Assembly (NCBI GenBank): GCA_965230975.1
Contig: OZ246402.1
Span: forward strand, 711,228-775,227
Reading direction: 5' to 3'
Length of the DNA stretch: 64,000 nucleotides
From: an uncultured Candidatus Saccharibacteria bacterium
GTDB taxonomy: Bacteria > Patescibacteriota > Dojkabacteria > J137
Part shown: piece by piece, positions 34,499-48,555 of the stretch
Layout: each line of letters opens with the position of its first letter
How positions within the stretch are numbered: the first letter of the stretch is position 1
Notes under the pieces: generated by a model
What the model was told of the DNA's origin: nothing
What the model saw: only the letters and a program-made list of their open reading frames with translations
The model's database searches: none
Translations under genes and position numbers: made by a program

Positions 34499-36208
34499 AT
34501 GGAAAATATTAAACAAGATCTTCTAGCATTTTTTGGAAATGAAAAAAATAGATTATTTATTTATATTCTCTTTGGATTTATTTCTTTAATTGTTATAAGT
34601 TCTGCAGTACTTCTAATATTATCTGTACCTAAAACTCCAAAACTCTCAAATGCAGAAGAAACAAAAGTTATAGATGAAATAATCAAAAATAACCCATCTG
34701 CTATTTTAGAAGAAACTATTAAAGATTCTAAAGATTCAAATGTACCTAATGAAAGTGCTCCATTTGGTACTCCAAGTCAAACTCCTGATCTTACTAAATA
34801 CAACTATAGAATCAGTGAATATAGCTATAAAACGGGGCCAGCTTATAAAGCTTGTAATTTAAATAATGGTAACTTTGAAGGCGGGCAAAACTCATCCTTA
34901 ATGAACTATTTTGATGGTAACTATAATTATACTTTTACAGAATATTTTGAAAAAAATCGTTCTGTTAACAAAAGCTACGTAACGTCTAATACATCTGGTC
35001 TGTTTCAAATAAATATATCAGATTATTCTAATATTCAATCACAATCTTATCAATATAATGGTGGAGAATATGCGATTAAAGCAATTTACGAACCTTACGA
35101 AGGCTATGTACAAGATGAGTACTTAAGTTACCCTGCATCTTATGCGAATCAATACTTAGATAACAGTTACTATACATTTATTGGAGAAGAAAAAATTGAT
35201 GGTAAAGATACTTACAAAATTCAAACAAATTATTATACTTTTTGTGATGGTAGCTACGGCTTGCTAAGTTCTGATTCTGAAAATGAAATACCTAATGCTG
35301 TAAAAATAGTAAATATAATTTATGCAGATAAAAATACCTACAGCATTCTAAGATATCAATCTTTCTTAAATGAGGTTAGTGACTCAAATCTTATAAGTAC
35401 TACAAATTCTTCTATAAAAACTTCATTAGTAAAGCTAGCAGATGTTAACGGAGAGTTTAAATTTAATTACAATGTTGCAGTTAAAATTATTGACTACACA
35501 GGTTACTGGGATTTGTTTAATGAAGATAATATTAAAAGTATATTTAAAAATTACTTAGCAACAAGTAATACTAGTCTTTTAAATGATAGTAGTTATGTTG
35601 TAAGTGGCATTTCAATACCAAGTGCATACCCTAAATTAGCAAACTCAGGATTTTTAACAGACAGAAAGTTTTACCCTACAAGTGTAGAAGGTGACGATTT
35701 TTACTTATATATGGTCACAAATAATAATATTAACCCAGAATCATCTATTAATCTTTATAGACGTGTTAACTTTGAGAGCTATGACTATATTAATTTAGAT
35801 ATTTACGATATCTCGGTTACTAAAGATGACCTTATTGCTTCACTTTTGCAAGATAAATACACTAGTTTTGAATCTTTTGAAGAAAAATTAATTATTGATT
35901 CAATAGAGGTTCCTGCAACTAAAATAAGTTTTGAATACAAGTACTTTGAAATACCTACTTCTTACACGTCAAGTAGCTCTTACCCTGCATCTTACCCATC
36001 CTATCACTGGACTTCAGATGTTTATGTCTTTAGCTTTAACAATCGGGTATACAAACTAACTTCATCTCAAGATGCAACAAGTTTAAATTTTAAATCTTAT
36101 AGTTCTAATAATCAGACAGAGTTAAATAACTTTTTTGATTTAATTGTGGGTTACAATTACTACTTTCCAACAAGTTATGCAAGCTATCCAGTAAGTTATA
36201 ATTGGTAA
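34499..36208 (+). CDS. Secreted/membrane-anchored Tyr/Ser/Asn-rich protein with YPASY-type C-terminal repeats
   Basis: N-terminal TM anchor. Low-complexity, Y/S/N-rich. The motifs YPASYANQY, SYPASYPSYHW and YASYPVSYNW recur. Confidence 0.5.
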   Translation: MENIKQDLLAFFGNEKNRLFIYILFGFISLIVISSAVLLILSVPKTPKLSNAEETKVIDEIIKNNPSAILEETIKDSKDSNVPNESAPFGTPSQTPDLTKYNYRISEYSYKTGPAYKACNLNNGNFEGGQNSSLMNYFDGNYNYTFTEYFEKNRSVNKSYVTSNTSGLFQINISDYSNIQSQSYQYNGGEYAIKAIYEPYEGYVQDEYLSYPASYANQYLDNSYYTFIGEEKIDGKDTYKIQTNYYTFCDGSYGLLSSDSENEIPNAVKIVNIIYADKNTYSILRYQSFLNEVSDSNLISTTNSSIKTSLVKLADVNGEFKFNYNVAVKIIDYTGYWDLFNEDNIKSIFKNYLATSNTSLLNDSSYVVSGISIPSAYPKLANSGFLTDRKFYPTSVEGDDFYLYMVTNNNINPESSINLYRRVNFESYDYINLDIYDISVTKDDLIASLLQDKYTSFESFEEKLIIDSIEVPATKISFEYKYFEIPTSYTSSSSYPASYPSYHWTSDVYVFSFNNRVYKLTSSQDATSLNFKSYSSNNQTELNNFFDLIVGYNYYFPTSYASYPVSYNW

Positions 36209-36261: not shown

Positions 36262-37623
36262 TTAAAAGCTTAAAGGAAATTTCTTAGCAAAAGATATTAC
36301 ATTCTTTTTGACATCTTTTATTCTTGAATCCTTACTTGCAAGTACATCAAATTGTGAAAAGTCTATGGATTTTGCTTTTAAATCTACTGCAATATCTGTT
36401 ACTTCGTTAATCCATTTAGCAACCTGCTTCATCTCTTTTTCCTTCATTCCTCTAGTTGTTAATGTTGGTGATCCAATCCTTAGGCCGCTTGGATTTAAAG
36501 GGGATCCAGATTCGTATGGTACTGTATTCATGTTGCTTATAATATTTGCATAGGCTAATGCTCTTGAAACATACTTACCTCCAATATCACGGCTTGATTT
36601 TAAATCTATTAAAACAAGGTGCTTATCTGTACCACCCGAGACAATTCTTAATCCGTAATTAGATAACTCAGTTGCAAGAACTTTTGCATTTTTTAATATT
36701 TGGCTACAATACTTTTTAAATTCTCGTGTGTCTGCTTCAAATAAAGCTTGTGTAATACCAGCAATAGTTCCGTTGTGTGGACCACCCTGCATGCCTGGCA
36801 TTACAGATTTATTAATTTTTTCAACAAATTCTTCTTTCATAAGTATCATGGCTCCCTTAGGGCCTCTTAAAGTTTTGTGAGTAGTCATTGTAACTACGTC
36901 TGCTATTCCAACTGGAGATTCAACTACACCTGATGCAATTAAACCTGCCTCGTGAGCTATATCAGAGAGGTAAATAGCACCAACTTTATCTGCAATCTTT
37001 CTGATTTTTTTGTAATCTATCCCTCTTGGGTATGCAGTCCCACCTGTAATAATCATTTTGGGCTTTTCTTCTATAGCTAGTTTTTCTATAAAGTCATAAT
37101 CAAAAACTTCGGTTTTAGAATCAGTTTTGTACTGAACAACATTAAAAATTTTAGATACTATACTTATTTTTACATTACCACCTCTATAAGTCATATTAGT
37201 TGCCATATCTTCTTTATCTTGTTCGGTTCTATCTTTAGTTGGAATATAACTCCAGCCATGCGATAAGTGACCTCCATCTGGCAAATACATGCTTAAGATT
37301 TTGTCACCTGGTTCTAATAAGGCATTGTAAACAGCCAGGTTTGCATTTGAACCTGCATATGGTTGTACATTTGCAGACCAACCTTTTGGTGCTTTAAATA
37401 CTTTTAAAGCCATTTCTATACAAAGATTTTCTAATTGATCTATAAATTCGTTACCTTCGTAGTATCTAGCACCAGGGTACCCTTCGGAATACTTATGCAT
37501 AAAAATACTTCCAACAGCTTCTCTAACTGCAGGGGACGTAAAGTTTTCAGATGGAATTAAGTCTAGTGTTTCTGATTGTCTTTTCTTTTCATTATCTAGG
37601 ATCTTCTTAATTTTAGGGTTCAT
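36262..37623 (-). CDS. glyA: Serine hydroxymethyltransferase
   Basis: N-terminus LIPSENFTSPAVREAVGS and the PLP-Lys region TTHKTLRGP. Confidence 0.9.
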   Translation of the reverse strand: MNPKIKKILDNEKKRQSETLDLIPSENFTSPAVREAVGSIFMHKYSEGYPGARYYEGNEFIDQLENLCIEMALKVFKAPKGWSANVQPYAGSNANLAVYNALLEPGDKILSMYLPDGGHLSHGWSYIPTKDRTEQDKEDMATNMTYRGGNVKISIVSKIFNVVQYKTDSKTEVFDYDFIEKLAIEEKPKMIITGGTAYPRGIDYKKIRKIADKVGAIYLSDIAHEAGLIASGVVESPVGIADVVTMTTHKTLRGPKGAMILMKEEFVEKINKSVMPGMQGGPHNGTIAGITQALFEADTREFKKYCSQILKNAKVLATELSNYGLRIVSGGTDKHLVLIDLKSSRDIGGKYVSRALAYANIISNMNTVPYESGSPLNPSGLRIGSPTLTTRGMKEKEMKQVAKWINEVTDIAVDLKAKSIDFSQFDVLASKDSRIKDVKKNVISFAKKFPLSF

Positions 37624-37767: not shown

Positions 37768-38712
37768 ATGGATGAGATTCTAAAATTGATTCTTGAAAAG
37801 TATCAATTTGATTTTATAAATATTGCCGCTGCTCAAAAAGGGTATAGAAATTCTTCATATTTAGTTACATGTAAGAATGGTGAGCTAATTAATTTGATTT
37901 TATATAAAAGGGAGCTTGGCATTTTGCAAAAAATTAAATCTGCAAATAAAGTTTCTTTAGAAATGCATAAATCTGGATTGCCTGTAAGATATCCAATAGG
38001 AAAAATATTAAGACTAACTGAAAATTACTACGCATGCATTTATAACTACCTTCCTGGGTCAACTATTCCTTGGGAATCTTACAGTATGGATCATTTAAAA
38101 TTGCTTGGTCAATATCTTAACAAAATACATTTTCATGGTAAAAATATGCCTTCACAAAACCTCGTTAAAGAGGCGGAAGTGCTTAAGGTGATACTTAGTA
38201 GGGTAGATAATTACTTTAAAAATGATAATGTTAAAGTTGCATTAAAAAATAAATTAAACATTGAAATAAATTTTGATAATCTCTTAAAACAATCAGAAAA
38301 GATTATCAATGATGTAGAAAGTTCAAATAAATCTACGATTTTACACATGGATTTTGTTCGTGGAAATATCTTGTTTGAATATAACCCAACAAGAATTTCA
38401 GGAATACTAGATTTTGAAAAAGCATCTTATGGTTCCCCATTATTTGATATTGCAAGAACAATGGCCTTTTTAATAGTAGATTGTAAATATAAATCTGAAG
38501 AAAAGATTAGAAAGTATTTTTTAAAGTCTGGATATATTAAGAATGGGAACTACAAATTTGATAGCTTTAAATACTTGAATGAACTTGTAGCACTATATTT
38601 AATTTATGATTTTTATAAGTTTTTAAAACATAACCCGTACGAATATTTGAACCAAAACGAGCATTTTAATAGAACAGTTAAAGTACTAAAAGATACAAGA
38701 CTTCTTCTATAG
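37768..38712 (+). CDS. APH/ChoK-family small-molecule kinase (protein-kinase-like fold)
   Basis: Brenner motif HMDFVRGNILF and the DFE metal-binding motif ILDFEKASYGSPLFDIA. Confidence 0.55.
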   Translation: MDEILKLILEKYQFDFINIAAAQKGYRNSSYLVTCKNGELINLILYKRELGILQKIKSANKVSLEMHKSGLPVRYPIGKILRLTENYYACIYNYLPGSTIPWESYSMDHLKLLGQYLNKIHFHGKNMPSQNLVKEAEVLKVILSRVDNYFKNDNVKVALKNKLNIEINFDNLLKQSEKIINDVESSNKSTILHMDFVRGNILFEYNPTRISGILDFEKASYGSPLFDIARTMAFLIVDCKYKSEEKIRKYFLKSGYIKNGNYKFDSFKYLNELVALYLIYDFYKFLKHNPYEYLNQNEHFNRTVKVLKDTRLLL

Positions 38713-38780
38713 GGTTTATCGACAGTCTACGCCTTTTACTTTAGAATATATTTCTAGTAATTACCTTTTACCCACTTTTT

Positions 38781-39335
38781 ATGGCTTCTGCATGGAAAAA
38801 ACGTCTTATAGATCAAAGCGATTTAATGACTTTAAACGAAAAATTGAAAGAGAAAGATAAGAAAATTGTCTTTACTGCAGGTAGTTGGGATTTATTGCAT
38901 GTTGGGCAGTGCAGATATTTAGAAGAGGCAAAAAGCAAGGGTGATATTTTAGTGGTTGGGGTAAGTTCTAACGAGGCTATTAGAAAGGTTAAAGGGCCAA
39001 ATAAACCAATTTTAGACGAAAAGATCAGAGCAGAGATGCTTACTTATTTAAGATCTGTTGATTTTGTAACCATATTACCAGAACCATCTTGCCAGCCAAC
39101 TTTAGGTTTACTAAAGCCAGATGTTTATGTAACTGTAAAAGAAGATTGGACAAGTGAATATAAAGAATCAAAAGAATATAAAACAGTAGTTAAATACGGA
39201 GGGGAAGTTTTAGTTGTAGATAGGCAATCAACAAAATTATCTACTACAAAGATTATTCAAAGAGCAATTGGTGGCCATTTAGGTGAGATTTTTAAAGATT
39301 TTATGGAACTTAGAAAAGACCCTTTAAAAGAGTAA
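38781..39335 (+). CDS. Cytidylyltransferase-like nucleotidyltransferase (RfaE domain II / heptose-1-P adenylyltransferase-like)
   Basis: VFTAGSWDLLHVGQCRYLEEAKSKGDILVVGVSSNEAIRKVKGPNKP matches the HxGH-type nucleotidyltransferase signature closely. Confidence 0.6.
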   Translation: MASAWKKRLIDQSDLMTLNEKLKEKDKKIVFTAGSWDLLHVGQCRYLEEAKSKGDILVVGVSSNEAIRKVKGPNKPILDEKIRAEMLTYLRSVDFVTILPEPSCQPTLGLLKPDVYVTVKEDWTSEYKESKEYKTVVKYGGEVLVVDRQSTKLSTTKIIQRAIGGHLGEIFKDFMELRKDPLKE

Positions 39336-39336
39336 T

Positions 39337-40350
39337 ATGTCTAACGAAAAGCAGGTAAACAAAGTCACATCACATTTAACTGAAGATGAAAAGCAACAGC
39401 TATATAAAAATGCACGGGCAAAAGATTGGTATGGTGGTATTTGGCAGAATGTTGGCAAATGTGTTTTTTGCGATCTAAAAGATAAATACATTCTTCACGA
39501 AGAAAACGGTGTTGTTTTGACAATAAACCTTTACCCTTACATTGATGGACAGATGATGGTTATCCCAAGAAAGCATGTTTCCTCGCCAAAAGAGTTAACA
39601 GATTTAGAATGGGAAACGATGCGTAAGTTATCTTACCTTGGTAAAAAGTTAATTAAAAAAGTTCATGGTCATAAAGCGATGTGGAACTTAATAAGAGAAG
39701 GGGGAGAAGCAGGTCAAATGACTGTAAGTGACCATTTGCATATGCAATTAATTCCTTTTGATGCAAAAGATTTATGTAACTGGAATTTCAGAGAATTGAA
39801 ATATACTCCCTTAGAGAATGTTCAAATGTATAAAGACCAAGCAAAGGAATTTATTGAAGATAAATATAAATTTGAAAAAAAATATGGTGCAAGTGTTAGT
39901 TTGCCAGTAGTTTGTGATGTAATAATCCAAAATAAAGAGGGTAAGTTCTTATTTCAAGAAAGAAAGCCAGAATATAAATTTCATCCAGATTATTTGACCT
40001 TACCAGGTGGTCATGTAAATGATTTTACTAAACCTTTTGAAGAAAACTTAAAGCGAGAAGTTTTTGAAGAGACTGGTTTGAAAATCAAAGAGACGGACTT
40101 AAAACTTCTCGCGTCCAGAGTGTCCAGTTTAAACTATGTCTCTAAGTCTATTCATTTGAATAAGAAAATTGCTACCTATAAACAATTTGTTTGGAACACA
40201 TACTTACTTAACTATTCTGTTGATGAGACTAAACTAATACCCGGTGATGATTGCGAAAGCTTTGTATGGTTGAGTTTAGATGATATTAGAAACAATAAAA
40301 GAGTTTCTGAAGCTTTACAGACAACATTTATTCAACATTTTTCAAAATGA
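39337..40350 (+). CDS. HIT(HINT-like)-NUDIX fusion protein
   Basis: N-terminal half: CVFCDL ... GQMTVSDHLHMQLIP, i.e. the HIT histidine triad. C-terminal half: NUDIX box LPGGHVNDFTKPFEENLKREVFEETGL. Confidence 0.6.
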   Translation: MSNEKQVNKVTSHLTEDEKQQLYKNARAKDWYGGIWQNVGKCVFCDLKDKYILHEENGVVLTINLYPYIDGQMMVIPRKHVSSPKELTDLEWETMRKLSYLGKKLIKKVHGHKAMWNLIREGGEAGQMTVSDHLHMQLIPFDAKDLCNWNFRELKYTPLENVQMYKDQAKEFIEDKYKFEKKYGASVSLPVVCDVIIQNKEGKFLFQERKPEYKFHPDYLTLPGGHVNDFTKPFEENLKREVFEETGLKIKETDLKLLASRVSSLNYVSKSIHLNKKIATYKQFVWNTYLLNYSVDETKLIPGDDCESFVWLSLDDIRNNKRVSEALQTTFIQHFSK

Positions 40351-41282
40351 AAAGTTACGATTGGAATAAAATTTCAAATGAGAAAAAGGAGGAATTATCA
40401 AAGTTAAAACCTATATTTATACAAGGTTCTAGAGATATATCTACCAAAAAGATAGCACAGCTAGCAAAGTTAGCTGAAAAGAGAAAATTAATTTGGGGTG
40501 TTTTAAAAGATGAATACATTAATGGTTTGGAAGGAAGTATTCAGTTTAAAACCCTATCTAAGAAAGTTATAGAAGAAACTTTAGAAGAGAGTAAAAATGT
40601 CTATTTACTAGAATATTATCAAAGAGATTTAAAACACATTTTTAAAGAGTTAGATTTTTCCTTAGTTATATTGATTAATGGATCTTGGCATAAAGCAATT
40701 CATTTCAACCCAGAAATTTGGCAATTAATTAACAAGAAAACAGAATATAAATTAATAAGCCCATTTGTAAACGAATTAGAAGCAAAAGAGTATGCAGAAA
40801 AGATAGTCCTAGAGTATTCAGCTAGAACGATTTTTGAAGAAAATAAAATCTACACAGATAAAGAGATTTTTGAAATTTTGAAAGAGGAGTCTAAAAGATC
40901 ATTTGATTGGAACTATCAAATTGCCAGTGCACTTGTTAACGATGGAAAAGTATTACTAACTGCTCATAATACAGTGATACCATACGAGACATACAGTGCA
41001 CATTTTGGATCAGAACGTGAGAAATACTATGTAGCACCAGGCGATTCAAATTTTTACGATACAAATCACGCAGAGGTCGAATTAATCTTAAAATCAAACA
41101 AAGAAAAAATTGATTTATTAGGTACATCAATTTACTTGAATGTTTTACCATGCCCAACTTGTTCTCGTATGCTTTTAAGGAGTGGTATACAAGAGATAGT
41201 ATATTCTCAAGATCATTCTGATGGTTATGCTATAAAAATGTTTGAAATGGCAGGTAAAACTGTCCGCAGATTTATTCCTTAA
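40347..41282 (+). CDS. dCMP/cytidine deaminase-fold protein with ~170-aa N-terminal extension
   Basis: C-terminal zinc motifs HAEVELI and LPCPTCSRML. The N-terminal domain is unassigned. Confidence 0.6.
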   Translation: MKSYDWNKISNEKKEELSKLKPIFIQGSRDISTKKIAQLAKLAEKRKLIWGVLKDEYINGLEGSIQFKTLSKKVIEETLEESKNVYLLEYYQRDLKHIFKELDFSLVILINGSWHKAIHFNPEIWQLINKKTEYKLISPFVNELEAKEYAEKIVLEYSARTIFEENKIYTDKEIFEILKEESKRSFDWNYQIASALVNDGKVLLTAHNTVIPYETYSAHFGSEREKYYVAPGDSNFYDTNHAEVELILKSNKEKIDLLGTSIYLNVLPCPTCSRMLLRSGIQEIVYSQDHSDGYAIKMFEMAGKTVRRFIP

Positions 41283-41322
41283 ACTATAAAAATTTTAGAA
41301 CTTTAACTATTAACTACAAAAT

Positions 41323-42186
41323 ATGACACATCCAGAACTTCAATATTTAAAGTTAATGTATTCTATCTTAAAGGATGGAAAGGGTAAGAAAACAAGAGGT
41401 ATTCATGGTGTTAGATCTATGTTTGGGTATCAAATGAAGTTTGATTTAAGACATGGATTCCCCTTACTAACAACCAAAAAGATGCCTTTTAAAATGCTAG
41501 TGAATGAGTTGCTTTGGTTTATTTCTGGAGATACTAATATTAAAAAATTAAATGAAAACAAGATATTTTATTGGGACGGTTTTGCAGATGAAAATGGTGA
41601 TTTAGGTCCAGTTTATGGTTCTCAATGGAGAAAGTGGCCAACTTTTGTAGATTCTAGAACAGGTAAAAGTGCAAATGCGCAAACGCCTAAAGAATTTTTA
41701 CAATACAAAGAGATAGATCAACTTCAAAATATTATTGAAGAGATTAAAACAATGCCTAATTCTAAAGCTATGATAGTCACAGCACACAATCCAGCTCAGT
41801 TATCAGAAATGCGTTTGCCACCATGCCATGCTTTCTTTCAATTTAATGTTACAAAAGAGAAGTTAAAGTTGCAGTTGTATCAAAGAAGTTCAGATGTATT
41901 TTTAGGTTTACCATTTAATATTGCTCAGTATGCTTTATTGTTGATGATGGTTGGGCAGGTTACTGGTTACGAGGCCAGAGAGCTTGTTGTGACTATTGGA
42001 GATGGTCATATTTATTATAACCATTTTGATGCAGCAAAAGAGCAGTTAAAAAGAAAGCCATTTGCTTTCCCTAAGGTCAAATTAAATCCAGATGTTAAAA
42101 ATATTGATGATTTTAAGCTAGAAGACTTTACTTTAGAGAATTATGAGTCTCACGAGGCTATTAAAGCTCCGTTAGTTATTATTTAA
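41323..42186 (+). CDS. thyA: Thymidylate synthase (ThyA type)
   Basis: Canonical ThyA motifs: N-terminal LVNELLWFISGDTN, and LPPCHAFFQFNV carrying the catalytic Cys. Confidence 0.85.
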   Translation: MTHPELQYLKLMYSILKDGKGKKTRGIHGVRSMFGYQMKFDLRHGFPLLTTKKMPFKMLVNELLWFISGDTNIKKLNENKIFYWDGFADENGDLGPVYGSQWRKWPTFVDSRTGKSANAQTPKEFLQYKEIDQLQNIIEEIKTMPNSKAMIVTAHNPAQLSEMRLPPCHAFFQFNVTKEKLKLQLYQRSSDVFLGLPFNIAQYALLLMMVGQVTGYEARELVVTIGDGHIYYNHFDAAKEQLKRKPFAFPKVKLNPDVKNIDDFKLEDFTLENYESHEAIKAPLVII

Positions 42187-43303
42187 CTAAGGATTTATAA
42201 ACTTCTAAATGTTCTTTGCACATTCTCTCAATTGAGAATCTTTGCTCAAATACTTTCCTACAGCTTTCTCTATTTATTGAGACTATGTTTTTTATCGCTT
42301 TAACTAAAGTATCAACAGCATCTATATCATTTTCAACTAATAATCCAGTTTTACCTTCATCTATTACCTCAGGAATTGCACCAGCTTTAATTCCAATAAC
42401 TGGAGTACCACAAGCTAAAGCTTCAATCATAACCATTCCAAAAGGTTCCTCCCATGTTGAAGGCACAATAAGTGCTTTGGCATTACCTAAAAATTCTTGC
42501 TTTTCAGAATTCTCTTTAAGGTAACCGACATACTTAATTTGCTTACCGTCAACGAATGGTTCAATCTTTTCAGACCAATACTTATCTTTAGCATAATCAG
42601 AATAATGTTTACCAGCAATTCTAAGTTCAACTCCAGCTTTTATTGCTGCATCTATAGCTAAATGAACACCCTTGGGTTCTATAATTCTGCCAAAATATGC
42701 AAAATAATCTTTTGAAGGGTTTTTTAAAGGGACAAATTTATTAACATCCATTCCATGGTAAATAGTCCGTAGGAAATTTGTCCCGGTTGGCATGCTTTTT
42801 CTTTGAGAACTTGAAATTGAAATCCAGTTTAAGTGCTTATATTTAGGCATAATGCTCCTGTATTTTGCGGAGAAATTGAAAGGTTCGTGGTGTGTAAAAA
42901 CTAGAGGTTTTTTGCAAAAATCAGCAAAAACCAAAGCTAACTCTTCCTCGTTAGTATAAACATGAACAATGTCAAATTCATTATTATTTGCTCTTTGAAA
43001 AGCGTCTTTAATAATCTCTGATTGAACTTGTCTTGCCATATTAATAAATACTAGTGGGTGTTTTTTTAAGAGTTCTATGTAAGAATCTTTTCTGAATTCA
43101 AGTTCTTTTTCAAACAAAGATAAATCTGCACTAATATTTTTTACCGAAGTATTTACCTTTCCTGGCGTAAAAAGAGTAACAACATGACCAAGTTTTTGAA
43201 GTCCCTCAGCTAAATCTAATGCTAAATATCCCGGGGAGAAAATAACATCAGGTAGTATCTCCTGATTCATGAATATATGAGGAACAACAATTGCTATTTT
43301 CAT
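42179..43303 (-). CDS. Glycosyltransferase family 4 (GT-B)
   Basis: EPFGMVMIEALACGTPVI...G motif. Confidence 0.8.
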   Translation of the reverse strand: MKIAIVVPHIFMNQEILPDVIFSPGYLALDLAEGLQKLGHVVTLFTPGKVNTSVKNISADLSLFEKELEFRKDSYIELLKKHPLVFINMARQVQSEIIKDAFQRANNNEFDIVHVYTNEEELALVFADFCKKPLVFTHHEPFNFSAKYRSIMPKYKHLNWISISSSQRKSMPTGTNFLRTIYHGMDVNKFVPLKNPSKDYFAYFGRIIEPKGVHLAIDAAIKAGVELRIAGKHYSDYAKDKYWSEKIEPFVDGKQIKYVGYLKENSEKQEFLGNAKALIVPSTWEEPFGMVMIEALACGTPVIGIKAGAIPEVIDEGKTGLLVENDIDAVDTLVKAIKNIVSINRESCRKVFEQRFSIERMCKEHLEVYKSLVK

Positions 43304-43332: not shown

Positions 43333-43521
43333 TTACTCCTCTTTATCTTCTTCGTCATCCAAAAAGCTTAAGTCTAAATCATCCATGCTTGTATCTAAAT
43401 CTTCGTCAAAATATCCATCTGCTTCATTTTCAGACTCATCCTGTTTATCAAGATTAAGCATTGGATCATCTAATAATTCATCATCTTTCTTTACTGGGTT
43501 TGTGTTTGCTGTATTGCTCAT
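43333..43521 (-). CDS. Small highly acidic hypothetical protein (62 aa)
   Basis: D/E-rich with no hydrophobic core. Co-oriented with the GT4 gene immediately upstream of it. Coding status uncertain. Confidence 0.3.
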   Translation of the reverse strand: MSNTANTNPVKKDDELLDDPMLNLDKQDESENEADGYFDEDLDTSMDDLDLSFLDDEEDKEE

Positions 43522-43578: not shown

Positions 43579-44115
43579 ATGATTAGCATAATTGTTGCCA
43601 TGGCAAAAAATAGAGTTATTGGGAATAAAAATCAGATCCCTTGGCACATTTCAGAAGATTTAACTCACTTTAATAATGTAACTAGTGGTCACCCTGTAAT
43701 TATGGGTGTTAAGACTCACGAATCAATTTCTGGTTTTGAACCTGGCAAAGGTTGGGACCCTACAAAGCCATTAGTGCATAAATTGCTTCCAAGAAGAACT
43801 AATATTATTGTTAACGATCAAGGTAATTATGAGGTACCTGGTGGAATTGTTGTAACAAATTTAGATGATGCTATTAAGGCTGCTAAAGAATCTGAGGGTG
43901 GTGATGAGATGTTTATTATTGGTGGTGCAATGATGTACGAATCTACAATTGGAATGGCAGATAAGCTTTATATTACAATGATTGATGCAGAGGTTGAAGG
44001 TGATAGATACTTTCCAGAAATCCCAGCAGAATTTAAATTGGTAGAAGATAAGAAAAGAATATGTAGGTTAAATGATGTTGAGATTAGATATAGTTTTCAA
44101 GTTTATCAAAAATAA
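43579..44115 (+). CDS. folA: Dihydrofolate reductase
   Basis: MISIIVAMAKNRVIGNKNQIPW...FIIGGA matches DHFR. Confidence 0.85.
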   Translation: MISIIVAMAKNRVIGNKNQIPWHISEDLTHFNNVTSGHPVIMGVKTHESISGFEPGKGWDPTKPLVHKLLPRRTNIIVNDQGNYEVPGGIVVTNLDDAIKAAKESEGGDEMFIIGGAMMYESTIGMADKLYITMIDAEVEGDRYFPEIPAEFKLVEDKKRICRLNDVEIRYSFQVYQK

Positions 44116-44562
44116 ATGCTGTCTGAACAATCTTTAAAACAATTAATTGCAGATAAGCAACTATTGATAGAAGGATCTAGTGACATTTTAAAAGGAAATG
44201 CAATAAAACTTCATTTAGGAGCTATATGCAAAAGATTAACTTCTGAAATAGTCGATATAAAATCTTTAGAGGATGCTGAGTACGAAGAGGTAGATATATC
44301 TTCGGGATACGATTTGAAACCGAATGAATTTCTATTAGCTTACACATTGGAGAAAGTAACAATGCCAAAAGGTTATATGGGTTGGATTGAAACTCGTGGT
44401 AGCTTAGCAAATATTGGCTTTCAAGTTCATTTTTGTGATGCTCATATAGACCCTGAATCCTCTTTGCATATTGCTTTGCAAATAAAAAACAACTCAAATT
44501 CAATAATAAGAATTTCCCTGAAGGAATACATTGCAAAGATGTATGTAGAAAGATTAGTGTAA
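44116..44562 (+). CDS. dCTP deaminase/dUTPase-family protein (short Dcd-like)
   Basis: IKLHLG and YMGWIETRGSLANIGFQVH...AHIDP parallel Dcd VDLRLG ... GWLDGRSSLARLGLMVH...HRIDPG. Confidence 0.6.
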   Translation: MLSEQSLKQLIADKQLLIEGSSDILKGNAIKLHLGAICKRLTSEIVDIKSLEDAEYEEVDISSGYDLKPNEFLLAYTLEKVTMPKGYMGWIETRGSLANIGFQVHFCDAHIDPESSLHIALQIKNNSNSIIRISLKEYIAKMYVERLV

Positions 44563-45162: not shown

Positions 45163-46380
45163 ATGGATATAGAATCTGATGTAATAACTCAAACCAGCTC
45201 TAAAAAACTCAACCCGTACTCCTTACCATATCTAAGAGAGTACCTTTCTAACCTGAAAAATAATAACTATTCCCGAGAGACACTAGAAAACTACGCACGA
45301 GATTTAGAAATATTTAGCGCATTTTTGTATTATTTAGAGGTCCCATTTGAAAAGATAGAAAAGCTAACTATCAGTGAATTTAAAGGTTTTTTAAGAGAAC
45401 AAAACTATATACCAATACTGCATAAATACCAAGCAGGATATGAACTTACAGAAGCAGATGTAGCTAAAAGCAAAACAGATGTATCTGAAGTAAAAAAAGC
45501 TATGTATAGAGGACAACTATCGGATGCAAGTGTAAATAGAATGCTTTCTGCATTACGTTCTTACCTAACATTTTTAGTAGATAATGATAAACCAATTCCA
45601 ATACCTCCAACTGCTATTAAAATGATCAAGGCAGAAAAGAAAGAAAAGCAGGTTGCAGAACTAAATGAACTTATTCAACTTATTGAATGCCCATTAGAAT
45701 ACGAAGATGAAATTATTGTTCAAAAAAGAAATAGAGCGATTTTAGAACTTATATTTTCAACAGGAATGAGAATTTCTGAAGTAGTAAATCTTAATCGCGA
45801 CCAAATTAAAATGATTAATGGCAGAATATCTGACGATAGAATTTATATAGTAGGTAAAGGAAAAAAACAAAGGTTTGTTTATTTAACACCTAGGGCAATA
45901 GAAAGACTTCAAGAATATTTAGATGATAGAGTCGATGATTACCCAGCTATGTTTATCCCAACTAGAGGAACTAGAAAAGCAACTGAAAACCCTTATATTG
46001 TAAGACTTTCTCAAAACTATATTCAAATGAAAATCGCCTACTACCGAAGAAAACTGGGGATAATTGTCCCAACATCTGCACATAGTTTGCGTCACGGGTT
46101 TGCAACATATATTGCAGAAGAAGGTGCAAACCCTGCAGCAATTCAAAAATTATTGGGGCACTCTTCATTGCAAACTACATCTAAATACGTACATGCGTCT
46201 GATAAATTTGCAGAAAAGGCTCATAGAGATTTTCACCCACTGCAAACAGATGAAGATGACCAAAAAATCCAAGATGATAAAGTTAACAATGTAGAACCTG
46301 AAGCCGAAAATCAACATGAGTCTAAAAATCAAACTGACTTTGAGCCTTCAATTGAAAGTTTAGATACTTTTGCAAGCTAA
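45163..46380 (+). CDS. Tyrosine site-specific recombinase (XerC/XerD-like) with acidic C-terminal extension
   Basis: N-terminal SAM-like core-binding domain. Catalytic R...HxxR...Y: LRHGFATY...LLGHSSLQTTSKYVH. About 70 extra C-terminal residues, D/E-rich. Confidence 0.8.
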   Translation: MDIESDVITQTSSKKLNPYSLPYLREYLSNLKNNNYSRETLENYARDLEIFSAFLYYLEVPFEKIEKLTISEFKGFLREQNYIPILHKYQAGYELTEADVAKSKTDVSEVKKAMYRGQLSDASVNRMLSALRSYLTFLVDNDKPIPIPPTAIKMIKAEKKEKQVAELNELIQLIECPLEYEDEIIVQKRNRAILELIFSTGMRISEVVNLNRDQIKMINGRISDDRIYIVGKGKKQRFVYLTPRAIERLQEYLDDRVDDYPAMFIPTRGTRKATENPYIVRLSQNYIQMKIAYYRRKLGIIVPTSAHSLRHGFATYIAEEGANPAAIQKLLGHSSLQTTSKYVHASDKFAEKAHRDFHPLQTDEDDQKIQDDKVNNVEPEAENQHESKNQTDFEPSIESLDTFAS

Positions 46381-47718: not shown

Positions 47719-48555
47719 ATGGCAATAGATGGTAAAAATATATCTTTACAAATTTATAAAGACATACAATCAAAACATTTATCTAATTTAAAATTAGCTA
47801 TTATTTTAGCTAATGATGATGAATCTTCAAAAAAATATACTGATCTTAAGAAATCATATGGTGAAAAATTAGGAATTTCTGTAGAAATATTTAGATTTGA
47901 TAAAAATTCCACCAAAGATAAAATTATTAATTTAATCTCACAATTAAATGCAGATGACTCCTTTAATGGAATAGTTGTGCAATTACCACTTTTTAAACAT
48001 CTTGAAGATGACACATTTGAAATATTAAATAATATAGACTATAGAAAGGATGCAGATGGTTTAACTACAACATCATTAGCAAGTGCATTTAATTACAATG
48101 AAAACTCTATAATGCCTGCTGCAGTGGAGGCTGTTTTAATAGCCTTGTCGCAAGCAAAAGATCCAAATGATTTGAACGGGCAGAGTATTTTAATAATAAA
48201 TAACAGCAATCTAGTTGGAAACCCATTGGCAATCGTATTGTCAAGATTTAATGCTACAGTAACAATCGCTAACGAGTTTACAAAGAACCTAAAAGATCTT
48301 ACATTGAATTCAGATATAATAGTTTCTGCTACTGGAGTTACGAATATTATCGAAGCTAAAGATATTAAAATGGGAGCTATTTTAATAGATGTAACAAGCG
48401 TTTCTTTAAATGGAATGGTTTTGGGAGATTTTGTTTATGATCAAGATCTAATTAATAAATGCAGTGCCTATACAAAGGTTCCAGGAGGAATTGGCCCAAT
48501 TACAGTAGCATCTTTGTTTAAGAACTTAGTAAGGTTAAAGGAAATATATGGATAA
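47719..48555 (+). CDS. folD: Bifunctional methylenetetrahydrofolate dehydrogenase/cyclohydrolase
   Basis: GIVVQLPL, the Rossmann region VGNPLAIVL, and C-terminal VPGGIGPITVASL. Confidence 0.8.
   Translation: MAIDGKNISLQIYKDIQSKHLSNLKLAIILANDDESSKKYTDLKKSYGEKLGISVEIFRFDKNSTKDKIINLISQLNADDSFNGIVVQLPLFKHLEDDTFEILNNIDYRKDADGLTTTSLASAFNYNENSIMPAAVEAVLIALSQAKDPNDLNGQSILIINNSNLVGNPLAIVLSRFNATVTIANEFTKNLKDLTLNSDIIVSATGVTNIIEAKDIKMGAILIDVTSVSLNGMVLGDFVYDQDLINKCSAYTKVPGGIGPITVASLFKNLVRLKEIYG

What the first reader, a model, noticed from the sequence alone, without database searches (positions are those of the whole stretch)
39337..40350. HIT (histidine triad) and NUDIX domains fused in a single 337-aa protein
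Both nucleotide-hydrolase folds are visible in one ORF: CVFCDL...HLHMQLIP, then a NUDIX box GGHVNDFTKPFEENLKREVFEETGL. Fusing two different phosphoanhydride- and phosphoramidate-cleaving domains points to sequential processing of a nucleotide conjugate such as ApnA, ADP-sugar or a nucleoside phosphoramidate. Its position next to an adenylyltransferase-like gene supports that.
Basis: seen in the sequence. Interest (0 to 1): 0.5.

Follow-up and report, generated by a model that had tools for sequence, protein, structure and literature searches.

The report
HIT–NUDIX fusion in thymidylate gene cluster
A real, conserved two-domain nucleotide-cleaving enzyme of tiny Patescibacteria belongs to an undescribed gene module (kinase, nucleotidyltransferase, HIT, dCMP deaminase) next to thymidylate synthase, so it probably supplies a pyrimidine nucleotide for making DNA's thymine.

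Summary
ORF 39337-40350 (+) is one uninterrupted 337-aa protein with a HIT domain and a NUDIX domain, both above Pfam's cut-offs. More than 100 homologues of 315-345 aa share the architecture, and an independent assembly has the identical ORF, so it is not an assembly artefact.

In about 90 Patescibacterial loci the order is APH-type kinase, cytidylyltransferase-like NTase, HIT (with or without NUDIX), dCMP deaminase, ThyA, with a GT4 glycosyltransferase, DHFR, SHMT or Tmk nearby. Relatives fuse these parts in other combinations: kinase+NTase+NTase+HIT, NTase+HIT, HIT+deaminase.

HIT is therefore the core, and NUDIX is an optional C-terminal add-on found in about 40% of loci.

My best reading (confidence 0.4) is that both domains cleave a (deoxy)cytidine diphosphate-linked conjugate made by the kinase/NTase pair and release (d)CMP to the translationally coupled deaminase and ThyA. 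The main rival (0.3) is a Leloir-like NDP-sugar pathway serving the GT4.

The substrate is not identified and I found no literature on the module. Novelty: a new variant of known kinds. Interest: moderate to high.

The parts
39337..40350 (+). HIT-NUDIX fusion gene (337 aa). Its start codon lies 1 nt after the NTase stop, and its stop overlaps the deaminase start (ATGA).
39337..39891 (+). HIT module, aa 1-185. It comprises a conserved N-terminal segment (Q20, A26, R27, Y32, W36), the GKCVFC knuckle, the HIT core and two conserved C-terminal helices. This unit occurs alone as proteins of about 175 aa in other genomes.
39460..39471 (+). C42-x-x-C45. Together with invariant H80 and H133 these are the four residues expected for a HIT/GalT-type zinc site (inferred, not shown).
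   Evidence: Invariant. Analogy with the Zn ligands described in bioRxiv 10.64898/2026.09.13.751320.
39733..39756 (+). HIT motif H133-L-H135-M-Q137-L-I-P140. H135 is the predicted nucleotidyl-accepting nucleophile. The third position is Q here, and H or Q across the family.
   Evidence: role of the second His
39910..40302 (+). NUDIX domain, aa 192-322.
40006..40080 (+). Atypical Nudix box, aa 224-248. G224, G225, E241, E244 and E245 are invariant and R240 is conserved in at least 90% of sequences. It has a one-residue insertion and no first Glu.
37768..38712 (+). APH-family small-molecule kinase (314 aa). The HxDxxxxN and DFE catalytic motifs are invariant. It is the first gene of the module.
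38781..39335 (+). Cytidylyltransferase-like nucleotidyltransferase (CT1, 184 aa), with HxGQ in place of HxGH.
40347..40841 (+). N-terminal domain of the long deaminase (aa 1-165). It has a degenerate nucleotidyltransferase-like fold (CT2) without HxGH.
40854..41282 (+). dCMP-deaminase domain with HAE and PCxxC zinc motifs. Its best structural matches are T4, S-TIM5, S. mutans, PBCV-1 and human dCMP deaminases.
41323..42186 (+). Thymidylate synthase ThyA. It passes NCBIfam's equivalog cut-off.
42179..43303 (-). GT4 glycosyltransferase, close to glucosylsucrose synthase (7fg9, E 4e-54; 8x3q, 3.3e-54) and to tetrahydrobiopterin glucosyltransferase. It is conserved in the module and is translationally coupled to the kinase in other lineages.
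43579..44115 (+). Dihydrofolate reductase.
44116..44562 (+). dCTP deaminase/dUTPase-superfamily protein (148 aa). It starts at the base directly after the DHFR stop.
36262..37623 (-). Serine hydroxymethyltransferase, divergent from the kinase.

Best explanation
The protein is a bifunctional nucleotide-conjugate cleaving enzyme. It is the 'release' step of a conserved Patescibacterial module made of an APH-type kinase, a cytidylyltransferase-like NTase (CT1, plus a degenerate CT2 domain), HIT (with or without NUDIX) and a dCMP deaminase, followed by ThyA. Proposed mechanism: the kinase phosphorylates a small alcohol or sugar X. CT1 couples X-phosphate to a cytosine nucleotide, giving (d)CDP-X. 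The HIT module attacks the alpha-phosphate with His135, forms an enzyme-(d)CMP intermediate, and passes it to water or phosphate. The Mg-dependent NUDIX domain offers a second route that splits the same kind of diphosphate linkage, or (d)CTP, into (d)CMP plus a phosphate ester. Both routes give a nucleoside 5'-monophosphate, which goes to the co-translated deaminase (dCMP to dUMP) and then to ThyA (dUMP to dTMP). Shown here: the domain identities, the conserved catalytic residues, the gene order, the translational coupling and the gene fusions. Inferred: that the nucleotide is a cytosine (deoxy)nucleotide, the identity of X, the direction of flux, and whether HIT acts as a hydrolase, phosphorylase or transferase.
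Against: No substrate is identified. Neither the NUDIX sequence profile nor its fold gives a specificity: the hits are generic MutT-like proteins, with GDP-mannose mannosyl hydrolase and NudI at the top of the fold search. The NTase scores best against the ADP-heptose synthase domain RfaE-II/HldC (1.4e-35), an adenylyltransferase. Building and then cleaving (d)CDP-X looks futile unless X-P is a carrier or the conjugate has another use. The window already encodes a Dcd/Dut-like enzyme that could make dUMP. A GT4 is a conserved, sometimes translationally coupled member of the module, and the proposed mechanism does not need it. Neighbouring-gene fusions can arise from simple stop-codon loss in tightly packed operons.
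Confidence: 0.4

Rival explanations
1. Leloir-like NDP-sugar pathway serving the GT4. The APH kinase would be an anomeric sugar kinase like NahK. The HldC-like NTase would make an NDP-sugar. HIT would be a GalT- or ADP-glucose-phosphorylase-type enzyme that exchanges or phosphorolyses the nucleotide-sugar. NUDIX would be an NDP-sugar pyrophosphatase that controls the donor pool. Adjacency to the deaminase and ThyA would reflect co-expression or nucleotide recycling, not a shared pathway.
For: The kinase's best family hits are APH and homoserine kinase type II, and NahK is structurally close to exactly those families. NahK also works with a HIT-superfamily transferase, GalT2. The NTase scores best against RfaE domain II/HldC (1.4e-35; PDB 5x9q). 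The window's HIT motif is HxHxQ, the GalT-family variant. The GT4 is strongly similar to UDP-glucose-dependent small-molecule glucosyltransferases (7fg9 at 4e-54, 8x3q at 3.3e-54, 5ze7 at 8e-25). The GT4 start overlaps the kinase stop by 4 nt in L010, L021 and L030, their ORFs also overlap in L019, and the GT overlaps the kinase-NTase-HIT fusion in L085. The top Foldseek hit of the NUDIX half is GDP-mannose mannosyl hydrolase. In Corynebacterineae the closest solved HIT relative, Rv2613c, shares an operon with the GT4 PimA and a MutT-domain putative GDP-mannose hydrolase (PMC3229680).
Against: It does not explain the HIT+deaminase and HIT+CT2+deaminase fusions, or the universal HIT-to-deaminase coupling. 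No fusion involving the GT4 was seen. The third motif residue is His, not Gln, in about 60% of family members. Single-domain HIT proteins of this size resemble Hint, Fhit or Rv2613c rather than the two-lobed GalT enzymes.
Confidence: 0.3
2. Generic house-cleaning or alarmone enzyme, as the automatic annotations say ('Ap4A HIT family hydrolase / MutT'). HIT would degrade dinucleoside polyphosphates or nucleoside phosphoramidates, NUDIX would degrade oxidised dNTPs or ApnA, and the gene neighbourhood would be incidental.
For: Source names. The closest solved HIT is an Ap4A phosphorylase. NUDIX profile hits include MutT, Ap4A hydrolases and RppH.
Against: All equivalog models are missed by wide margins: MutT 18 against 97.9 bits, and ATP adenylyltransferase 39 against 290. 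The extreme conservation of context and the many fusions with kinase, NTase and deaminase are not expected for a stand-alone sanitising enzyme. The family is small and confined to Patescibacteria, with 34 representatives at E<1e-30.
Confidence: 0.1
3. Part of a nucleotide or DNA hypermodification (glycosylation) pathway like those of phages. The sugar kinase and NTase would make the donor, the GT4 would glycosylate a pyrimidine, and HIT-NUDIX would act as the dCTPase-like pool-clearing enzyme.
For: The gene set parallels phage clusters for glycosylated 5-hydroxycytosine: a ThyA homologue, dCTPase, dNMP kinase, sugar kinase plus NTase, and GTs whose models resemble 5zfk, 7fg9 and 8x3q (PMC13326640). 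Some relatives also carry a second thymidylate synthase (a Tmk-ThyX fusion in L002).
Against: ThyA passes the thymidylate-synthase equivalog cut-off and retains the dUMP-type sequence motifs (sequence read against E. coli ThyA from memory). DHFR and SHMT sit beside it, as expected for a true TS. I know of no report of hypermodified DNA in these widely sequenced bacteria. The phage GT resemblance is at fold level only.
Confidence: 0.06
4. Artefactual fusion of two adjacent genes through a sequencing or assembly error.
For: None found.
Against: An identical ORF is present in an independent assembly. More than 100 homologues of the same length and architecture come from different samples and sources. 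The inter-domain segment is conserved. The two-domain model is confident.
Confidence: 0.01

Closest known systems
Rv2613c / MAV_3489 Ap4A phosphorylase of mycobacteria (PDB 3ANO, 3WO5, 6AF2)
   Same: It is the closest solved relative of the HIT half by sequence (phmmer 1.2e-7; profile 5e-11) and by fold (Foldseek E about 1e-7, 24-27% identity). It also sits in an operon with a GT4 (PimA) and a MutT/NUDIX protein.
   Different: Rv2613c has a full HxHxH triad, has no fused NUDIX, has a different N-terminal extension, and lies in a phosphatidylinositol-mannoside operon rather than a thymidylate cluster. The window protein scores 39 bits against the 290-bit cut-off of the actinobacterial ATP adenylyltransferase equivalog.
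NadM-Nudix bifunctional NMN adenylyltransferase / ADP-ribose pyrophosphatase (PDB 2QJT, 2R5W, 2QJO)
   Same: A nucleotidyltransferase of the same HUP/cytidylyltransferase-like superfamily is functionally joined to a NUDIX domain. The NUDIX half aligns to it over nearly its full length.
   Different: Here the NTase is a separate gene, a HIT module lies between it and the NUDIX, and the scores are far below the equivalog cut-offs (20.5 against 409 bits).
GalT-family HIT transferases and phosphorylases (GalT, BlGalT2, Apa2, ADP-glucose phosphorylase At5g18200)
   Same: The HxHxQ motif is present in the window protein. The nucleotidyl-His ping-pong chemistry is the same. The Cys-x-x-Cys plus His plus first-motif-His pattern of a Zn site is the same. 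BlGalT2 partners with an APH-like kinase, NahK.
   Different: Those enzymes have two HIT lobes or an auxiliary domain. This one is a single small HIT module, and most family members have His at the third position.
Phage T4-type dNTP-synthesis set (dCTPase/dUTPase gp56, dCMP deaminase Cd, Td, Frd, dNMP kinase). This comparison rests on my own knowledge.
   Same: It has the same logic of a pyrophosphatase that yields dCMP/dUMP beside dCMP deaminase, thymidylate synthase, DHFR and a kinase. The deaminase's top structural hit is T4 Cd.
   Different: gp56 is an all-alpha MazG-like enzyme, not HIT or NUDIX. T4 has no APH kinase or cytidylyltransferase in this role.
NitFhit Rosetta-stone protein (PDB 1EMS)
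   Same: A HIT domain is fused to a second, unrelated hydrolase domain. It appeared among the sequence hits.
   Different: The partner domain (nitrilase), the taxon and the pathway are all different.

Membership tests
HIT superfamily | H-phi-H-phi-[H/Q]-phi-phi motif with the second His as nucleophile | tested here: met
   H133-L-H135-M-Q137-L-I is read directly in the sequence. H133 and H135 are invariant in 30 homologues.
HIT superfamily | Profile match above Pfam's gathering threshold, and the HIT fold | tested here: met
   PF01230 scores 34.4 bits against a cut-off of 21.5. Foldseek matches 3ano, 3wo5 and 6af2.
HIT superfamily | Covalent nucleotidyl-histidine intermediate | not testable with these tools
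   Needs biochemistry.
GalT branch / Ap4A phosphorylase group of HIT | Third motif residue is Gln (HxHxQ), conserved in the family | tested here: inconclusive
   It is Q in the window protein, but the 84 loci give H in 53, Q in 23, L in 1, and 7 in which the motif pattern was not matched. H and Q both occur in the HIT-only, HIT+NUDIX and HIT+deaminase forms; the three triple fusions all have H.
ATP adenylyltransferase (Ap4A phosphorylase) equivalog NF052622 | Score at or above the curated cut-off | tested here: not met
   39 bits against a cut-off of 290.
NUDIX superfamily | Nudix box GX5EX7REUXEEXGU | tested here: inconclusive
   R240-E-V-F-E-E-T-G-L matches REUXEEXGU, and E241, E244 and E245 are invariant. 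The Gly-to-Arg spacing is one residue longer than canonical, and the first Glu is replaced by Thr/Lys.
NUDIX superfamily | Profile match above Pfam's gathering threshold, and the Nudix fold | tested here: met
   PF00293 scores 50.4 bits against a cut-off of 21.1. Foldseek gives E 6e-9 to 2i8t and also matches 6dt3 and 3grn.
MutT 8-oxo-dGTPase (TIGR00586 / NF008044) | Equivalog score cut-off | tested here: not met
   18 against 97.9 bits, and 19.3 against 148 bits.
GDP-mannose mannosyl hydrolase (NF011963) | Family score cut-off | tested here: not met
   17.1 against 146 bits, although it is the top fold hit.
NadM-Nudix bifunctional enzyme (PRK05379) | Equivalog score, and an NMNAT domain in the same chain | tested here: not met
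   20.5 against 409 bits, and there is no NTase domain in this ORF.
Patescibacterial kinase-NTase-HIT-dCMP deaminase module (defined here) | The HIT gene is flanked upstream by an APH kinase and a CTP_transf_like NTase, and downstream by a dCMP deaminase and ThyA | tested here: met
   Window genes 37768-42186. The same order is seen in L002-L091.

The most novel reading that the evidence does not exclude
The kinase, cytidylyltransferase, HIT(-NUDIX) and dCMP deaminase module would be a previously unrecognised pathway of Patescibacteria. In it a nucleotide-linked conjugate, for example a (d)CDP-sugar or (d)CDP-alcohol, is an obligatory intermediate. Either it is a carrier-mediated route from (d)CTP to dUMP/dTMP, or it makes a glycosylated pyrimidine nucleotide or glycosylated DNA through the co-operonic GT4. 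The HIT-NUDIX protein would be its committed nucleotide-release step.
Probability: 0.15. Interest if true: 0.85.

Novelty: new variant of a known kind. Interest (0 to 1): 0.55.

Why it matters
Patescibacteria (CPR) have minimal genomes and cannot make nucleotides de novo, so how they obtain and interconvert DNA precursors is central to their dependence on hosts.

This module is conserved from Dojkabacteria to Saccharimonadia and beyond. It is welded together by at least six different gene fusions and sits inside the thymidylate and folate gene cluster. That suggests an unrecognised step in pyrimidine deoxynucleotide supply, or in nucleotide-sugar use.

All the parts are soluble enzymes of well-understood superfamilies. 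The hypothesis can therefore be tested directly in vitro, and also in the Saccharibacteria that can now be manipulated genetically.

The result also corrects database names. 'Ap4A hydrolase / MutT' rests on domain-level similarity only.

Tried and rejected
1. Assembly or frameshift artefact. Rejected.

2. Assigning NUDIX specificity from sequence profile or fold. The profile search against PDB sequences and Foldseek gave only generic MutT-like hits, Gmm, NudI, RppH and NadM-Nudix. No family cut-off is met.

4. Identifying the kinase substrate. A profile of 16 orthologues against PDB sequences gave only YihE at E 0.0045, which is uninformative.

5. Anti-phage defence system. PADLOC gives only weak domain-level hits (PDC-S07 at 6e-7 for the NUDIX; dCTPase at 1e-7 for the zinc motif of the deaminase). 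Not supported.

6. Horizontal-transfer island. GC content is uniform at about 0.30-0.33 across 36-45 kb.

7. Promoter and terminator scan. The counts equal the shuffled expectation, so operon ends cannot be defined this way.

8. Is NUDIX presence complementary to a neighbouring Dcd/Dut or FolD? No homologues of those two window genes lie within +/-8 kb in the other loci, so the test could not be made.

9. Literature. Searches on HIT/Nudix/dCMP deaminase, on Saccharibacteria thymidylate metabolism, and on the five-enzyme combination found nothing about this module.

10. Is the ThyA a hydroxymethylase? It passes the thymidylate-synthase equivalog cut-off, so I treat it as a genuine TS.
Full report
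**1. The observation**

ORF 39337..40350 on the + strand is one continuous 337-aa reading frame. Pfam detects a HIT domain at aa 50-140 (E 3.5e-8, above the gathering score) and a NUDIX domain at aa 192-322 (E 2.9e-13, above the gathering score).

Two refinements come from reading the sequence.
- The HIT motif is H133-L-H135-M-Q137-L-I-P, that is HxHxQ and not a full triad.
- The Nudix box keeps R240-E-V-F-E-E-T-G-L, but it has one extra residue between the Gly and the Arg and lacks the first Glu.

**2. The fusion is not an artefact**

An independent Logan assembly (L001) has the identical ORF together with the same neighbours. A search of 5.8 billion proteins returned 254 hits. The best 120 are 301-345 aa long, and almost all carry both HIT and NUDIX Pfam hits.

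In a 30-sequence alignment the following residues are invariant: C42, C45, H80, H133 and H135 in the HIT half; G224, G225, E241, E244 and E245 in the NUDIX half; and a string of residues in the connecting segment (P140, F141, D142, L146, W149, R152, P158, Y165, K178, Y183). The AlphaFold model built on that alignment is confident (pLDDT 85.9, pTM 0.74). Both halves therefore look catalytically competent, and the protein is a conserved family.

**3. What the two halves resemble**

The HIT half is closest to the mycobacterial Ap4A phosphorylase Rv2613c and its M. avium orthologue. This holds for single-sequence search (1.2e-7), profile search (5e-11) and fold search. It misses NCBI's equivalog model for that enzyme by a wide margin (39 against 290 bits).

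The NUDIX half is a generic MutT-like domain. Profile hits are M. mazei MutT-related 3grn, AtNUDX1, MutT, NadM-Nudix and NudI. Fold hits are led by GDP-mannose mannosyl hydrolase, NudI and 3grn. No family cut-off is met.

A profile search with the NUDIX half alone shows that it forms its own clade. A few stand-alone or fragmentary members score E 1e-31 or better, and then nothing appears until E 3e-7.

According to a 2026 preprint read here, the second His of the HIT motif is the nucleophile that forms the nucleotidyl-enzyme. HxHxQ marks the GalT, Ap4A-phosphorylase and APS-phosphorylase family. In this family, however, the third position is His in 53 loci and Gln in 23 of 84. H and Q both occur in the HIT-only, HIT+NUDIX and HIT+deaminase forms. 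The Gln of the window protein is therefore a lineage variant and not a family signature.

**4. The neighbourhood is the main result**

In the window the gene is the third in a tight + strand series.

| Coordinates | Strand | Gene |
|---|---|---|
| 36262-37623 | - | SHMT (upstream, divergent) |
| 37768-38712 | + | APH-family kinase |
| 38781-39335 | + | cytidylyltransferase-like NTase; its stop lies 1 nt before the HIT-NUDIX start |
| 39337-40350 | + | HIT-NUDIX |
| 40347-41282 | + | 311-aa dCMP deaminase; 4-nt ATGA overlap with HIT-NUDIX |
| 41323-42186 | + | ThyA |
| 42179-43303 | - | GT4 glycosyltransferase |
| 43579-44115 | + | DHFR |
| 44116-44562 | + | dCTP-deaminase/dUTPase-like gene, abutting DHFR |
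| 47719-48555 | + | FolD |

I fetched 80 loci from species-level genomes, nearly all of them Saccharimonadia, Dojkabacteria or other Patescibacteria, plus loci from metagenomes. I then searched their ORFs with the window's proteins. Nearly every locus shows kinase, NTase, HIT, deaminase and ThyA in that order, with the GT4 beside them. DHFR, SHMT or thymidylate kinase often lie nearby.

**5. Architectures of the HIT gene**

Among the 84 loci counted (L001-L084):
- 41 have HIT alone (about 175 aa).
- 33 have HIT+NUDIX (about 325 aa).
- 7 have HIT fused directly to the deaminase domain (about 325 aa).
- 3 have HIT + N-domain + deaminase (about 515 aa). Further examples of this form are P0144, P0152, P0171 and P0239.

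A rough NJ tree of the HIT modules places HIT+NUDIX forms on both sides of the midpoint root, with HIT-only and HIT-deaminase forms interspersed. That pattern fits an early gain and repeated loss of NUDIX, but the tree is crude. In one metagenomic contig a stand-alone NUDIX of this clade sits directly upstream of the deaminase and overlaps it by 4 nt (L092).

HIT is therefore the constant element, NUDIX is an optional add-on, and both are wired to the deaminase.

**6. More distant relatives**

An exhaustive profile search with the HIT module found only 34 cluster representatives at E<1e-30. The next tier shows new fusions:
- NTase+HIT (P0264, P0265)
- two NTase-like domains + HIT (P0271)
- APH kinase + two NTase-like domains + HIT (P0274 and P0275, about 740 aa)
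- HIT+deaminase (P0270, P0273)

Their contigs repeat the same operon.
- L085: a glycosyltransferase overlaps the start of the kinase-NTase-NTase-HIT fusion. The fusion is followed, with overlapping stops and starts, by a short dCMP deaminase, a ThyA fused to pterin-binding domains, and thymidylate kinase.
- L088: APH+NTase, then NTase+HIT, then deaminase, then ThyA.
- L091: NTase, HIT, deaminase, ThyA, DHFR, SHMT.

**7. The second NTase-like domain**

The window's deaminase is a long form. Its AlphaFold model is very confident (pLDDT 95.2).

I infer that this N-domain is the same 'second CT-like domain' that sits between NTase and HIT in the distant fusions. It would be a degenerate partner, reminiscent of the tandem domains of ethanolamine-phosphate cytidylyltransferase, which is the NTase's top PDB hit. 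The active NTase itself carries HxGQ instead of HxGH in about 90% of orthologues.

**8. Mechanistic reading**

The fusion network links kinase, NTase, HIT and deaminase. Neither the GT4 nor ThyA is ever part of a fusion with them.

HIT and NUDIX enzymes share one product class, nucleoside 5'-monophosphates, and the next enzyme in line takes dCMP. The NTase belongs to the cytidylyltransferase family.

The most economical scheme is therefore the following. The kinase makes X-phosphate. The NTase makes (d)CDP-X. HIT, through His135, and where present NUDIX, release (d)CMP. The deaminase and ThyA convert it to dTMP.

This scheme is inferred and not shown, and I give it 0.4. Its weaknesses are these:
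- The apparent futility of building and then cleaving the conjugate.
- The NTase's equally good match to the ADP-heptose synthase domain.
- The presence of a Dcd/Dut-like gene in the window.
- The unexplained GT4.

**9. The main rival (0.3): an NDP-sugar pathway**

The GT4 is very similar to glucosylsucrose synthase (7fg9, 8x3q, E about 4e-54) and to tetrahydrobiopterin glucosyltransferase. Its start overlaps the kinase stop by 4 nt in L010, L021 and L030, their ORFs also overlap in L019, and it overlaps the fusion gene in L085.

An APH-like anomeric kinase (NahK) working with a HIT-superfamily transferase (GalT2) is an established pair. In Corynebacterineae, Rv2613c lies in one operon with the GT4 PimA and a MutT-domain putative GDP-mannose hydrolase (PMC3229680).

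The two readings can be combined if the donor is a (d)CDP-sugar.

**10. Minor rivals**

The generic Ap4A/MutT house-cleaning reading (0.1) is what the database names imply, but it does not account for the context.

A phage-like pyrimidine glycosylation pathway (0.06) is suggested by parallels with PMC13326640. Against it, ThyA passes the thymidylate-synthase equivalog cut-off (357.6 against 327 bits), and DHFR and SHMT sit beside it.

**11. Novelty**

The individual domains are ordinary, and the fusion is already present in databases under domain-level names. What appears to be undescribed is the module itself and its many fusions. Three full-text searches found nothing on it, though the library is incomplete.

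I rate it a new variant of known kinds, with interest 0.55. It offers a specific, testable lead into nucleotide economy in Patescibacteria, but the substrate remains unknown.

Noticed in passing
window 38781-39335 (motif near aa 33-42): The cytidylyltransferase-like NTase has G-S-W-D-L-L-H-V-G-Q. The second His of the HxGH signature is Gln, and this holds in about 90% of orthologues (72 of 80 scored).
   Followed up: partly
[not shown]
   Followed up: partly
window 43333-43521 (-): A 62-aa, extremely acidic ORF (D/E-rich, MSNTANTNPVKKDDELLDD...) lies between the GT4 and DHFR. It was not checked for conservation, and whether it is a real gene is unknown.
   Followed up: no
window 42179-42186: ThyA (+) and the GT4 (-) are convergent, and their 3' ends overlap by 8 nt.
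   Followed up: no
window 44116-44562: A 148-aa dCTP deaminase/dUTPase-superfamily gene starts at the base right after the DHFR stop. It is below the dCTP-deaminase equivalog cut-off (77.7 against 92.8 bits), so whether it is Dcd or Dut is undecided. No homologue lies near the module in the other loci.
   Followed up: partly
window 45163-46380: A tyrosine recombinase (phage-integrase family, 405 aa) sits between the thymidylate genes and HtrA/FolD. It could be XerC/D-like or mark a mobile element.
   Followed up: no
window 34499-36208: A 569-aa protein has an N-terminal hydrophobic segment, is very rich in Ser, Tyr and Asn, and has no Pfam hit. It may be a surface protein.
   Followed up: no
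L085 10711-12180; L088 4144-5571: In distant relatives ThyA is fused to MtrA-like and/or PterinBD-DUF4346 domains (475-489 aa). This hints at an unusual pterin cofactor arrangement for thymidylate synthase in those CPR lineages.
   Followed up: no
L002 11356-13716; L003 10840-12633: Thymidylate kinase occurs as long forms (555-786 aa). In L002 it is fused to a ThyX (Thy1) domain, so that genome has both ThyA and ThyX.
   Followed up: no
L011 8960-9763: An extra 267-aa ORF between HIT-NUDIX and the deaminase hits both the NUDIX half and the deaminase N-domain. It may be a duplicated or rearranged intermediate.
   Followed up: no
L034, L037, L041-L045, L047, L049, L050: Several MAGs labelled 'uncultured Pseudomonadales' (and L075, labelled 'Verrucomicrobiia') carry this Patescibacteria-type cluster. 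The taxonomic labels of those records are probably wrong.
   Followed up: no
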